A stretch of DNA of 11,600 nucleotides from a virus, in the UHGV virus genome UHGV-0196356, one strand, 5' to 3'. A model generated the notes under the pieces. That model searched no databases and was not told where the DNA came from. It saw only the letters and a program-made list of their open reading frames with translations. The position numbers were made by a program, and so were the translations under genes. Positions 1,101 through 2,774 of the stretch are shown here, in pieces (the stretch's first letter is position 1; the number at the start of each line of letters is the position of its first letter).

Positions 1101-1874
1101 TTACTTATTAAGTTCACTAAGTTTTGCTGGGTTAAGCCTGTAAATTATACAGAATATGGCAAATAAGCCAGCGGTACTAATACCAAAACCATATTTCTCA
1201 AATGTTAATTCAACAAAACCCGGATAGCTAATTAGCAAGCCGGGGATACTTATGCTAAATAATGTTCTCAATACGAAATATTGCATCCCACTTGGTTTTT
1301 TTATAAACAAGCAAGCAATAAATACCAATGAACTAAAGCACAGGCCTATTACTAATGGTATTTGTACTTTGTCACCTATGAAATAAGCAGATAAAAAGAC
1401 AATTATAGCAACTATAATCACCCCAACTGCTAATGCTATTTTCACTGGATCTACCTTCTCTTTATTGTCAAACCCAAATGTCGGCAAGTTATTGTCATGC
1501 AATAATCCTCTTAACTTTTCTGATTTTTCTTTTCCGCAGTATGCTTTAACCATCCTCTGCATCCCGGAGTAAGCTGTTTCACTTGGGGATATGGTTTGAT
1601 CATTTACATCAATCCTGTAACGCTGATAATGTTCAACAAGAAGCTCTATCACATCATGACATGTTTCCGCAATCCATTGATTCCATGAGCTATTTTTCAG
1701 TATCTCATCGGAGTTATTCATTGCGCAACATTGCTCTAGATAATTACATAGTTGCTTCATTGATTTATCAGCATCATTTAGATTTTTTGTTTCCTCATAA
1801 TTATTAAGGTCTTGGCAATATTTTTCATATAGAGCATTAACCTTTTCCTGCTGTTGAGTTATTCTTTGTTGCAT
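1101..1874 (-). CDS. Hypothetical membrane-anchored protein D (257 aa): Cys-rich soluble N-terminal domain of about 150 aa plus four predicted C-terminal TM helices
   Basis: Long ORF. Hydrophobic segments KIALAVGVIIVAIIVFLSAYFIG, IPLVIGLCFSSLVFIACLFI, FVLRTLFSISIPGLLISYP, GISTAGLFAIFCIIY. Seven Cys in the N-terminal domain. Followed by a terminator. No family recognised. AT-rich codon usage. Confidence 0.6.
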   Translation of the reverse strand: MQQRITQQQEKVNALYEKYCQDLNNYEETKNLNDADKSMKQLCNYLEQCCAMNNSDEILKNSSWNQWIAETCHDVIELLVEHYQRYRIDVNDQTISPSETAYSGMQRMVKAYCGKEKSEKLRGLLHDNNLPTFGFDNKEKVDPVKIALAVGVIIVAIIVFLSAYFIGDKVQIPLVIGLCFSSLVFIACLFIKKPSGMQYFVLRTLFSISIPGLLISYPGFVELTFEKYGFGISTAGLFAIFCIIYRLNPAKLSELNK

Positions 1875-2154
1875 TTTGTTTTTCTACTGCCTTTATGTTG
1901 TCTTGCATTTCTTTTATTTTGAATAATGCCATCTTGGCAACTGATGTATCCAAGCCTTCCATACAAGAGACAATTAACGGTTTGTGGTAAACCGAACTGA
2001 CGACTTTTAGTATGTCGCTTTCATTTGCATTACTTGGTAGAGTAGCTAGTTTACTCCATATGCTGTTTAATTGTTCCTCGGTCGGACTCCATACCTCAAT
2101 ACCAAGAATCTGTTCAAGGTCTTTTTTCATCGCTAAAATATTTGCATTTTTCAT
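1837..2154 (-). CDS. Hypothetical small protein C (105 aa), paralogous to B at its C-terminus
   Basis: ORF with an ATGA start/stop overlap with upstream B; its 3' end overlaps the D start by 38 nt. Shares the motif GLDTS[TV]AKM[MA]L..IK with B. Hydrophilic, Lys-rich tail. Confidence 0.5.
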   Translation of the reverse strand: MKNANILAMKKDLEQILGIEVWSPTEEQLNSIWSKLATLPSNANESDILKVVSSVYHKPLIVSCMEGLDTSVAKMALFKIKEMQDNIKAVEKQNATKNNSTAGKG

Positions 2155-2315
2155 TTTTTACCTTCTTTATTTGAGTTAGATACTTTCGCTTGACTTTCCT
2201 GTTCTTTTTTTATGCTATTTAGCATCATTTTTGCTGTTGACGTATCTAGGCCATCATGGACCATAACTCTCTGAGGCGTATTTTTTTTACTATCTGGCGT
2301 ATTATTATTTGCCAT
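2151..2315 (-). CDS. Hypothetical small protein B (54 aa), truncated paralog of C
   Basis: Hand-translated (below the ORF-track size cutoff): MANNNTPDSKKNTPQRVMVHDGLDTSTAKMMLNSIKKEQESQAKVSNSNKEGKK. AAGG 5 nt upstream of ATG 2315. Stop TGA overlaps the start of C (ATGA). Confidence 0.4.
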   Translation of the reverse strand: MANNNTPDSKKNTPQRVMVHDGLDTSTAKMMLNSIKKEQESQAKVSNSNKEGKK

Positions 2316-2351
2316 ATGATTACCTTTTGATCTGTGTTTTCTAGAGGTTAA

Positions 2352-2774
2352 TTACCAGTAATATGAACTTCTTCTGTGCCACCAATAAAGCAGGCTGTAT
2401 CCGACAATAAGAATCCCGAAGAACATCAGAGACATTCCCCAGCCGGTTCCGTACCACGAAACCATATCATCGAAAACTAGCCCGCCCATCTCACGTACTC
2501 CGGCAGCTTCCTTAAGAATTGGCTTGAATACCGGAATCAGAAGGGCGATCGCCAGTGGAGCACCCCAGCGAACAAGACCAGTTTCCATTTTGACCCCGAA
2601 AAAGATCCCCGCACCGACAACAAGCAGCCAGACTATCAGACCAGGCGCAGTTTCCAGTGCTGTTTGCCATTCAACATCGAAAGTTTTCATTAGCCAGGCA
2701 ACAACTGCCAGACAGAAAACAAATACGCCTATGACAACCAGTTCAACGCCGCTTGTTTCGTTATTTCTACTCAT
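2352..2774 (-). CDS. Hypothetical small integral membrane protein A (140 aa, about four TM helices)
   Basis: ORF with AAGGA 8 nt upstream of the ATG. Four hydrophobic helices (LVVIGVFVFCLAVVAWL, GLIVWLLVVGAGIFFGV, GAPLAIALLIPVF, GWGMSLMFFGILIVGYSLLYWW). More GC-balanced than B, C and D. Confidence 0.55.
   Translation of the reverse strand: MSRNNETSGVELVVIGVFVFCLAVVAWLMKTFDVEWQTALETAPGLIVWLLVVGAGIFFGVKMETGLVRWGAPLAIALLIPVFKPILKEAAGVREMGGLVFDDMVSWYGTGWGMSLMFFGILIVGYSLLYWWHRRSSYYW

What the first reader, a model, noticed from the sequence alone, without database searches (positions are those of the whole stretch)
1101..2774. Unrecognised four-gene membrane-associated accessory module carried inside a filamentous prophage
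Between the left att site and the phage regulator, four minus-strand genes (A: 4-TM protein of 140 aa; B: 54 aa; C: 105 aa; D: 257-aa protein with a Cys-rich soluble domain and a 4-TM anchor) do not resemble any Ff phage function. B, C and D are visibly more AT-rich than the phage core and gene A, suggesting a separately acquired cassette. The layout (small proteins translationally coupled to a membrane-spanning protein, own terminator at 1034-1067) resembles phage-borne superinfection-exclusion, abortive-infection or toxin modules, but no known family is recognisable from sequence. Filamentous prophages at dif are known vehicles for cargo such as CTXphi ctxAB, so this is the best candidate for an undescribed system in the window.
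Basis: partly seen in the sequence, partly recalled or inferred. Interest (0 to 1): 0.85.

Follow-up and report, generated by a model that had tools for sequence, protein, structure and literature searches.

The report
Swappable membrane-protein cassette in filamentous prophage
A filamentous prophage at the E. coli dif site carries a rare, mobile three-gene cassette (two small soluble proteins and a membrane protein) in its variable cargo slot; the cassette has no known function but keeps turning up where phages and plasmids store anti-phage genes.

Summary
The four minus-strand ORFs exist exactly as described: D 1101-1874, C 1837-2154, B 2151-2315, A 2352-2774. They are not one module.

Gene A (4 TM, phrog_4174) belongs to the phage backbone. 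It is about 95% identical in related E. coli prophages.

B-C-D exactly fills a hypervariable slot between A's stop codon and the attachment-site hairpin. At least five other cargos occupy that slot in related prophages, including a DpnII/MboI-type nuclease.

The "own terminator" (1034-1067) is the tip of a CTXphi-type attP hairpin formed by two inverted dif-like sites. All relatives share it.

The conserved core of the cassette is C + D. B is a stand-alone copy of C's C-terminal "GLDTS" motif, and B/C copy number varies between loci.

The cassette recurs in other inoviruses, in the fun(Z) slot of a P2-like phage, on plasmids and in an integrative element. In three of these it sits next to Hhe-like, Hachiman or PDC-S15 defence genes.

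No member matches Pfam, NCBIfam, PADLOC or any solved structure. D is a cytoplasmic helical bundle followed by 3-4 TM helices.

Best reading, inferred and not shown: a lysogen-expressed exclusion or abortive-infection cassette with a membrane effector. It is an untested candidate of a familiar kind.

The parts
1001..1033 (+). Left attachment site. It is dif-like, with a XerC arm GGTGCGCATAA identical to dif, an 11-nt central region, and a XerD arm TTATGTTGAAA with 2 mismatches.
1034..1067 (.). GC-rich stem-loop forming the tip of the ~95-nt attP hairpin. As RNA on the minus strand it is a 17-bp stem with a 6-nt loop followed by UUUUC, so it probably also terminates the leftward operon. It is a phage backbone feature, not a cassette feature.
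   Evidence: DNA fold -29.3 kcal/mol, z -6.5. RNA fold -39.4 kcal/mol, z -7.0. 99-100% identical in prophages with other cargo.
1068..1094 (-). Second, inverted dif-like site (GGTTCGCACAA ... TTATGCTAAAG). It pairs with site 1 in single-stranded DNA, giving a CTXphi-type attP.
   Evidence: I1
1101..1874 (-). Gene D, 257 aa. It has a cytoplasmic all-helical N-domain (residues 1-135, pLDDT ~90) with the conserved motifs WNQW[LI]AE.C, H82, PS..A...MQR and GF. This is followed by 4 hydrophobic helices with conserved P.PS..Q, R203, PGF and NPAKL. It is the putative membrane effector and matches phrog_5814.
1837..2154 (-). Gene C, 105 aa. It is a soluble small partner with the N-terminal motif W.PT..QL and the C-terminal motif V.V..EGLDTS.A..L..IK. 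It always lies directly upstream of D. It matches phrog_6502.
2151..2315 (-). Gene B, 54 aa, basic (pI 9.7). It is a stand-alone copy of the C-terminal GLDTS motif of C. It is an optional, variable-copy component.
2352..2774 (-). Gene A, a 140-aa 4-TM protein (phrog_4174). It is conserved backbone of this inovirus lineage and not part of the cassette. Its stop codon marks the right edge of the variable slot.
   Evidence: the 90%-identity cluster has 659 members, against 15 for D
2816..2846 (.). Stem-loop between the regulator and gene A. It resembles a terminator or attenuator.
2863..3315 (-). HTH (Cro/CI-type) phage regulator, phrog_3557. It is the first gene of the leftward operon, and the real start is probably the internal ATG at 3315.
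10312..10339 (+). Perfect 28-bp E. coli dif at the right prophage end.

Best explanation
**What is there (shown).** Window ~1100-2351 is the hypervariable cargo slot of a dif-integrated inovirus related to Lineavirus/UPphi/CUSphi. On one side the slot is bounded by the stop codon of backbone gene A. On the other side it is bounded by the attP hairpin. In this phage the slot holds a self-contained, horizontally mobile cassette. Its obligatory core is C (small soluble protein) plus D (helical cytoplasmic domain followed by a 3-4 TM bundle). B is an extra, truncated paralogue of C's C-terminal GLDTS motif.

**How it probably works (inferred).**
- The cassette has no convincing promoter of its own. 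It lies downstream of the HTH regulator and gene A and upstream of the shared hairpin/terminator, so it is probably expressed in lysogens as the distal part of the repressor-side leftward operon.
- D is the effector and acts on the inner membrane.
- C, and B through the shared GLDTS strand-helix motif, bind D's cytoplasmic domain. They either hold D inactive or couple it to a signal.
- The outcome is lysogenic conversion of the exclusion / abortive-infection type, directed against competing phages or other mobile elements.

The anatomy, mobility and hotspot location are shown. Expression, the C-D interaction, membrane action and any anti-phage phenotype are inferred.
For: **The slot is variable and its flanks are conserved.**
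- Flanks 900-1100 and 2352-2860 are 95-100% identical in E. coli prophages that carry five other cargos.
- One of those cargos is a REase_DpnII-MboI nuclease: Pfam 7e-59; PADLOC Aga_Helical-REase 1e-34 and PDC-S35 4e-11.

**The cassette moves independently of the backbone.**
- A distant inovirus (Zot 63%, A 72%) carries B/C/D at 76/81/88% identity.
- Near-identical backbones (Zot 95%) carry 32-35% diverged C-D alleles.
- The window's allele is absent from 5,426 complete E. coli genomes, even with blastn in 'distant' mode.

**C sits directly upstream of D in 12 of 13 contexts examined.**
- The contexts are inoviruses L012, L015, L016, L018, L023 and L028; phage P2DC1; plasmids L003, L019 and L021; the Pantoea element L006; and IS-flanked L008 and L014.
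- The one exception, L020, has an IS30 element abutting D.

**Contexts are defence-type.**
- In phage P2DC1 the C-D pair lies between the tail-fibre genes and gpFI. In P2 that position holds fun(Z), annotated as a lysogenic-conversion gene that blocks T5.
- In Pantoea the cassette lies next to a helicase matching PDC-S37 (E 0) and Hhe (1e-229).
- On the Klebsiella plasmid it lies next to a PDC-S15 FRG protein (1e-98) and TacAT.
- On the P. aeruginosa plasmid it lies next to Hachiman HamA and its helicase.

**Domain architecture is modular.**
- D's N-domain and TM region occur separately with other partners among 461 family representatives. One example is an alpha/beta-hydrolase fusion.

**Published precedent.** Inovirus variable loci carry defence systems (PMC11630473, PMC12715192). 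Transmembrane proteins are believed to act as suicide effectors in anti-phage systems (PMC9122126).
Against: - There is no experimental datum for any family member.
- No member hits PADLOC v2, Pfam or NCBIfam.
- Structure searches return only generic helical bundles.
- The association with defence genes rests on a handful of loci. It is not a statistic.
- Most occurrences found are in inoviruses, so a function specific to filamentous-phage biology is not excluded.
- In L018 the cassette follows a small 60-aa regulator directly, with no gene A. A role in phage regulation therefore remains possible.
- The family has 3-TM and 4-TM forms. These would invert the topology of the conserved C-terminal helices, which is hard to reconcile with a simple fixed-topology channel.
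- No promoter or expression evidence was obtained. Promoter scans gave no more matches than shuffled sequence.
Confidence: 0.5

Rival explanations
1. Toxin-antitoxin / addiction module. D is a membrane toxin and C (plus or minus B) is its labile protein antitoxin. The cassette stabilises the prophage, plasmid or island that carries it, without primarily defending against phages.
For: - The gene order fits: a small gene upstream of, and overlapping, a larger one.
- The cassette occurs on plasmids and beside other TA pairs, namely TacAT on L003 and DUF1778/GNAT on L019.
- TA systems are known inovirus cargo, for example PfiAT (PMC12328805, PMC11630473).
- A D-only copy exists only where an IS has cut the locus.
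Against: - There is no similarity to any TA family in Pfam, NCBIfam or PADLOC.
- Duplicated B/C genes (B-C-B'-C'-D, B-C-C'-D) are unusual for TA pairs.
- TA function and abortive infection are not mutually exclusive, so this is partly a sub-case of the main explanation.
Confidence: 0.17
2. Function specific to the filamentous phage. The cassette would be a membrane-associated accessory that serves the inovirus itself. Examples are superinfection immunity against related inoviruses, or modulation of assembly/extrusion or of the lysogeny switch.
For: - Four of five IMG/VR loci with D relatives are inoviruses, and so are two further loci.
- The cassette always lies on the regulator side next to attP.
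- In L018 it follows a 60-aa regulator directly.
- Outside phages, the cassette is still followed by the inovirus attP2 + hairpin + XerD arm, so its origin lies in inoviruses.
Against: - It is absent from most related prophages, which carry unrelated cargo in the same slot.
- Homologues sit in a tailed P2-like phage and on plasmids that have no inovirus genes.
- D's 90%-identity cluster has 15 members, against 659 for backbone gene A.
Confidence: 0.13
3. Host-directed lysogenic conversion unrelated to phage conflict. Examples are altered envelope physiology, stress tolerance or virulence, as with ctxAB in CTXphi.
For: - dif-integrating inoviruses do carry virulence cargo (PMC7307601, PMC12715192).
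- D is an inner-membrane protein of unknown activity.
- The cassette is found in gut, clinical E. coli and Salmonella samples.
Against: - None of B, C or D has a signal peptide or secretion feature.
- Neighbours outside phages are defence or TA genes rather than virulence genes.
- The rapid allele turnover is typical of conflict systems.
Confidence: 0.1
4. A, B, C and D form one four-gene system with two membrane proteins.
For: - All four genes are co-oriented and closely packed.
- The order A-B-C-D recurs in L023 and L028.
Against: - A is present with five unrelated cargos.
- A is absent next to B-C-D in L016 and L018 and in every non-inovirus context.
- A's GC content is 48%, against 34.5% for the cassette.
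- The homology breakpoint falls exactly at A's stop codon.
Confidence: 0.05

Closest known systems
Hypervariable accessory loci (pHVRs / accessory-gene hotspots) of dif-integrating inoviruses (Vibrio: PMC11630473, PMC12715192; variable accessory region of UPphi/CUSphi/Ypfphi: PMC7307601)
   Same: A defined slot next to the attachment site, with conserved flanks, rapidly exchanged content and some defence-type cargo. In this slot that cargo is a DpnII/MboI-type nuclease allele.
   Different: This is an enterobacterial Lineavirus-like lineage. The cargo is an uncharacterised C-D(+B) family that defence-finder-type models do not detect (PADLOC tested, no hit).
Lysogenic-conversion and hotspot genes of P2-like phages (old, tin, fun(Z); Rousset et al. 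2022, PMC9122126; 2026 preprint 10.64898/2026.02.27.708500)
   Same: A C-D pair occupies the slot between the tail-fibre genes and gpFI in phage P2DC1, which is where P2 carries fun(Z). The design also matches several validated hotspot systems: a small, promoter-poor cassette with a TM protein.
   Different: There is no sequence similarity to Fun(Z), and no PADLOC model was hit. P2 itself gave no tblastn hit. P2DC1 lysogens were not reported as protective in the passages read.
Lambda RexA/RexB exclusion system
   Same: The layout is similar. Genes lie distal to the repressor in the lysogenic operon, and a cytoplasmic component is paired with a multi-TM inner-membrane protein that is thought to depolarise the cell.
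   Different: There is no homology. hhalign probability is below 1% for D versus RexA or RexB, and A versus RexB gives E 0.3. In this cassette the sensor-like domain and the TM bundle are in one polypeptide, and the partners are 54-105 aa.
CTXphi-type IMEX integration module
   Same: Two inverted dif-like sites fold into a forked hairpin in the (+) strand. Both remain at one prophage end, and a perfect dif is regenerated at the other end.
   Different: This concerns the boundary of the slot, not the cassette's function. The central region of site 1 is 11 nt long.
Inovirus-borne toxin-antitoxin / kinase modules of Pf phages (PfiAT, KKP; PMC12328805, PMC11341870)
   Same: Accessory modules of filamentous prophages that are linked to prophage maintenance and to defence against other phages.
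   Different: The proteins are unrelated. The Pf modules are cytoplasmic enzymes or regulators, not membrane proteins.

Membership tests
Ff/inovirus core morphogenesis or replication proteins | Sequence homology of A-D to gII, gV, gVII/IX, gVIII, gIII, gVI, gI (Zot) or gIV | tested here: not met
   Pfam, PHROG and NCBIfam scans give no such match. The core genes are all accounted for at 3483-9315.
Inovirus hypervariable accessory locus (hotspot) | Conserved flanks with unrelated gene content in closely related prophages | tested here: met
   Flanks are 95-100% identical and six different cargos occupy the slot.
Inovirus hypervariable accessory locus (hotspot) | At least part of the alternative cargo is recognisable defence machinery | tested here: met
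   The M19/VR50 allele is a REase_DpnII-MboI nuclease matching Aga_Helical-REase and PDC-S35. The other alleles are unannotated.
Known anti-phage defence systems (PADLOC-DB v2.0.0) | A significant HMM match of any cassette protein to a system component | tested here: not met
   The best hit is E 2e-4 (Cyclase, 18.7 bits) for one member only. Nothing is shared among the 12 family members.
Anti-phage defence system (functional class) | Reduces plating or burst of at least one phage when expressed | not testable with these tools
   Only context evidence is available: the fun(Z) slot and neighbours matching Hhe, Hachiman and PDC-S15.
Lambda Rex-like exclusion | Homology to RexA or RexB | tested here: not met
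   hhalign probability is 0.7% and 0.1%. BLASTP of A versus RexB gives E 0.32.
Lambda Rex-like exclusion | Co-transcription with the prophage repressor in lysogens | tested here: inconclusive
   The genes share the repressor's strand and lie downstream of it, with no convincing internal promoter. However, a hairpin lies between the regulator and A, and there are no expression data.
Type II toxin-antitoxin module | A small upstream gene overlapping a larger downstream gene, with the pair conserved as a unit | tested here: met
   The C/D overlap is 38-44 nt, and C-D are paired in 12 of 13 contexts.
Type II toxin-antitoxin module | Toxicity of the large protein neutralised by the small one, or homology to a known TA family | not testable with these tools
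   There is no homology in Pfam, NCBIfam or PADLOC. Toxicity needs an experiment.
CTXphi-type IMEX attachment site (boundary feature) | Two inverted dif-like sites that fold into a hairpin, with dif regenerated at the other end | tested here: met
   Sites lie at 1001-1033 (+) and 1068-1094 (-). The ssDNA fold is -29.3 kcal/mol with z -6.5. A perfect dif lies at 10312-10339.
PHROG families phrog_5814 (D), phrog_6502 (C), phrog_4174 (A) | A significant profile match | tested here: met
   E-values are 3.6e-45, 6.6e-11 and 1.2e-82. All three families are annotated 'unknown function'.

The most novel reading that the evidence does not exclude
C-D(+B) is a previously undescribed anti-phage / anti-MGE system. 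Its fold and partner logic would be new: a helical cytoplasmic domain fused to a 3-4 TM bundle, controlled by one to four small 'GLDTS' strand-helix proteins whose copy number varies. It would be native to filamentous phages and exported from them, together with a piece of their Xer attachment site, to plasmids, islands and P2-like phages.
Probability: 0.35. Interest if true: 0.6.

Novelty: new variant of a known kind. Interest (0 to 1): 0.5.

Why it matters
If the cassette is shown to exclude phages, it would add a defence family that current detectors miss (no PADLOC, Pfam or NCBIfam hit here). It would also show that enterobacterial filamentous prophages at dif act as vehicles for such systems, as has been proposed for Vibrio. 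The family is tractable. It is only 1.2 kb, it has natural two-, three-, four- and five-gene variants, and it has natural 3-TM and 4-TM forms. The observation that the cassette carries a fragment of the Xer attachment hairpin into plasmids and islands points to a route by which inovirus cargo spreads. If it is not a defence system, it is simply one more uncharacterised moron among many.

Tried and rejected
**Searches that found nothing useful**
- Pfam, NCBIfam and PADLOC scans of A-D, and of 12 diverse D homologues, gave only noise.
- A profile search against PDB sequences gave nothing below E 0.4.
- Foldseek against BFVD found nothing at E<=0.001.
- Rfam found nothing in the window.
- Promoter scans in the window and in L003/L006 gave no more matches than shuffled sequence.
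- A literature search by accession number found no paper.

**Ideas tested and rejected**
- A Rex-like relationship was tested and rejected at the homology level.
- A HEPN-like Rx4H reading of the MQR..K.H stretch was rejected, because the His is not conserved.
- A ribbon-helix-helix reading of the GLDTS motif was considered. The secondary-structure order is strand-turn-helix, not strand-helix-helix, so I dropped it.
- A pdif-module reading, with the cassette flanked by Xer sites on both sides, was rejected. There is no dif-like site in the A-B spacer.

**Technical failures**
- The search for homologous proteins failed twice.
- The afdb50 fold library was unavailable.
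Full report
**1. Where the window is**

The window is E. coli chromosome at the hipA-dif-ydeT locus, and it holds a filamentous prophage.
- It matches this locus in complete E. coli genomes. Annotated genes there include a II/X replication protein, a major coat protein, an attachment protein, DUF5455, Zot and a secretin.
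- Among deposited phages only gene I aligns, to Lineavirus I2-2 at 76%. This fits the UPphi/CUSphi/Ypfphi group of dif-integrating relatives of IKe/I2-2 (PMC7307601).
- A perfect 28-bp dif lies at 10312-10339.

**2. Checking the observation**

- B/C share ATGA and C/D overlap by 38 nt. B has a good Shine-Dalgarno sequence 36 nt after A's stop.
- GC content is 34.5% for B-C-D, 48.2% for A and 40.3% for the core.
- A has four hydrophobic helices. D has a soluble N-terminal ~140 residues followed by four hydrophobic helices.
- No Pfam, NCBIfam or PADLOC family is matched.
- PHROGs does hold families for D (phrog_5814, 4e-45), C (phrog_6502, 7e-11) and A (phrog_4174, 1e-82, full length). All three are annotated 'unknown function'.

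**3. A is backbone; B-C-D is cargo**

- Megablast of 1000-2850 against 5,426 complete E. coli genomes finds only two conserved pieces, the att side and gene A. It never finds the middle. Even blastn in 'distant' mode finds no copy of 1101-2340.
- Pairwise blastn places the breakpoints at ~1100 (D's stop) and 2351/2352 (A's stop).
- Related prophages fill the same slot with other cargo:
  - a 110-aa protein (APEC E19057);
  - a 159-aa protein plus an ECs_2282 zinc-ribbon protein (UM146);
  - DUF6953 plus a 264-aa protein (M19, VR50);
  - a 123-aa plus a 155-aa protein (MS8345);
  - in strain 98227, a diverged two-gene version of this cassette, with a C-like protein of 94 aa (31% identity) and a D-like protein of 262 aa (35% identity).
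- The 264-aa M19 protein is a REase_DpnII-MboI nuclease (Pfam 7e-59). It matches PADLOC Aga_Helical-REase (1e-34) and PDC-S35.
- In the 90%-identity clusters, A has 659 members and D has 15. Every source calls D, C and B 'hypothetical protein'. The exact proteins are deposited as Inoviridae sp. MAG proteins DAV97657-60, and close copies occur in Salmonella and E. coli drafts.

**4. The 'own terminator' is the phage's attachment hairpin**

- Positions 1001-1033 (+) read GGTGCGCATAA-TGTACGACTCG-TTATGTTGAAA. Positions 1068-1094 (-) read GGTTCGCACAA...TTATGCTAAAG.
- As single-stranded DNA, 1000-1095 folds into one long imperfect hairpin at -29.3 kcal/mol with z -6.5. This is the arrangement known for CTXphi-type attP sites (established knowledge).
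- The GC-rich tip (1034-1067), read as minus-strand RNA, is a 17-bp stem with a 6-nt loop followed by UUUUC, at -39.4 kcal/mol with z -7. It probably also terminates the leftward operon.
- The hairpin is 99-100% identical in prophages with other cargo, so it does not belong to the cassette.

**5. The cassette as a family**

B-C-D recurs as a unit in several places:
- a Klebsiella IncFII plasmid (D 82% identity);
- a Pantoea vagans integrative element (58%);
- IS-flanked chromosomal and metagenomic loci (62-64%);
- plasmids of Cedecea, Cronobacter and Salmonella;
- four of the five IMG/VR viral contigs with D relatives, which are inoviruses.

Composition varies between loci: C-D (P2DC1, E. coli 98227, Salmonella pRSE21), B-C-D, B-C-C'-D (L008, L014) and B-C-B'-C'-D (L016).
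- B aligns to the C-terminal part of C, sharing V.V..[DEN]GLDTS.A..LL..I.
- C sits directly upstream of D in 12 of 13 contexts. The exception has an IS30 element abutting D.

Backbone and cassette have different histories.
- L028 has Zot at 63% and A at 72%, but D at 88%.
- L015 and L018 have Zot at 95%, but D at 32-35%.
- L023 shares A-B-C-D at 98% but has a different regulator.

A profile search of 1.84 billion representatives finds 461 relatives of D at E<=1e-3, of which 109 are at E<=1e-10.
- Most are 230-290 aa.
- Some carry only the N-domain joined to other C-termini. One of these is a PGAP1/DUF676-type alpha/beta hydrolase and another has DUF3298.
- Some carry only the TM region behind other N-termini.
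- None of ten such proteins matches PADLOC.

**6. Context as evidence for function**

- In the P2-like phage P2DC1 (isolated in PMC9122126), the C-D pair lies between the tail-fibre genes and gpFI. In P2 that position holds fun(Z), annotated as a non-essential lysogenic-conversion gene that blocks T5. A tail-gene accessory hotspot of P2 carrying defence systems is described in preprint 10.64898/2026.02.27.708500.
- In Pantoea the next gene is a 1,840-aa helicase matching PDC-S37 (E 0) and Hhe (1e-229).
- On the Klebsiella plasmid the neighbours are a PDC-S15 FRG protein (1e-98) and TacAT.
- On a P. aeruginosa plasmid the neighbours are Hachiman HamA and its helicase.
- On the Salmonella plasmid the neighbour is a DUF1778/GNAT toxin-antitoxin pair.

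This is guilt by association from a few loci, not a statistic.

**7. Structure**

- The AF2 model of D has a confident all-helical N-domain (pLDDT ~90 for residues 1-135) and less confident TM helices.
- Invariant or near-invariant residues are W64, A69, E70, C72, H82, P97, A101, M105, Q106, R107, G134 and F135 in the soluble part. In the membrane part they are G177, P194, Q198, R203, G212, P218-G219, G236, A239, Y245 and P249.
- No Rex homology was found.
- By charge distribution the N-domain, the IKKPSGMQ loop and the C-terminus of the 4-TM form would be cytoplasmic. This is an inference.
- The 3-TM forms lack TM1, which would flip the remaining helices. This is unexplained.

**8. Most likely mechanism**

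Shown:
- The cassette is mobile.
- It occupies a hotspot.
- It has an obligate small-partner plus membrane-protein core.

Inferred:
- It is expressed as the distal part of the regulator-A leftward operon in lysogens.
- C/B bind D's cytoplasmic domain through the GLDTS strand-helix.
- D perturbs the inner membrane when released or triggered.
- The result is exclusion or abortive infection of competitors.

I put about 0.5 on this reading. The rivals are:
- a plain addiction (TA) module, ~0.17;
- an inovirus-specific function, ~0.13;
- a host-directed conversion factor, ~0.1;

**9. Novelty**

- The hotspot concept is published for Vibrio inoviruses (PMC11630473, PMC12715192). The existence of a variable accessory region next to dif in UPphi/CUSphi/Ypfphi is also noted (PMC7307601).
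- The C-D(+B) family itself has no name, no literature hit by accession and no model in Pfam, NCBIfam or PADLOC.
- It is therefore a new, untested variant within a familiar kind: a prophage-hotspot cassette with a membrane effector. A specialist would find it worth cloning but not surprising.

Noticed in passing
window 1000-1098; loci L026, L027: The ~93-nt attP hairpin alone matches 441 plasmid records at 87-99% identity, mostly conjugative IncF plasmids of E. coli and Klebsiella. In pINF078-VP it sits next to small HTH genes. A K. pneumoniae IncFIB/HI1B plasmid carries tandem copies of a related inovirus. Xer-exploiting elements of this type therefore seem to be common plasmid passengers.
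   Followed up: partly
L003:8781-8854, L006:8781-8851, L008:8781-8850 versus window 1024-1100: Outside inoviruses, the B-C-D cassette is still followed by the inverted dif-like site 2, the hairpin tip and the XerD arm of site 1. Homology ends at the central (crossover) region. The cassette seems to have left an inovirus together with a piece of its attachment site.
   Followed up: partly
alignment A4 (D family); L016, L018, L002, L020, L021: The D family has 4-TM forms (257-269 aa) and 3-TM forms (228-270 aa) that differ by one inserted TM helix right after the soluble domain. This would invert the topology of the conserved C-terminal helices. It is unexplained.
   Followed up: no
L011:1579-2373 (E. 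coli M19; also VR50 and others): The alternative cargo in the same slot is a 264-aa REase_DpnII-MboI nuclease matching pAgo-associated Aga_Helical-REase and PDC-S35, paired with a DUF6953 protein. It is a candidate two-gene defence cassette in its own right.
   Followed up: partly
window 2863-3483 versus L023: A gut-metagenome contig, binned as a Ruminococcaceae MAG and almost certainly mis-binned, carries A-B-C-D at 98% identity but has an unrelated regulator region. The immunity/regulator module is therefore exchanged independently of the cargo.
   Followed up: partly
window 9316-10311: A second accessory region lies between the secretin gene and dif. It has an 82-aa ORF (9465-9713, +) and an 81-aa ORF (9864-10109, -), both annotated hypothetical in relatives, and 46% GC.
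   Followed up: no
window 1-1000: In the left flank, the ECSE_1600-family autotransporter gene is truncated (ORF 6-638) and only the 3' end of hipA remains (~719-1000). hipB and most of hipA are deleted relative to strain APEC E19057. The same deletion is annotated in strain M19.
   Followed up: partly
window 2352-2774 (gene A): One source (JGI/IMG) labels the exact protein 'FtsH-binding integral membrane protein'. No Pfam or NCBIfam model supports this here. A is a very common 4-TM protein of these prophages (659 members in its 90% cluster), and its role is unknown.
   Followed up: no
L018:4776-4958: A closely related prophage at the same hipA-dif site lacks both the HTH regulator and gene A. 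It has instead a 60-aa protein, possibly ribbon-helix-helix-like, directly upstream of its B-C-D cassette.
   Followed up: no
P0114, P0083: The soluble N-domain of D also occurs fused to a PGAP1/DUF676-type alpha/beta-hydrolase (562 aa) and to DUF3298 (469 aa). This suggests a portable sensor or regulatory domain used with different effectors.
   Followed up: partly
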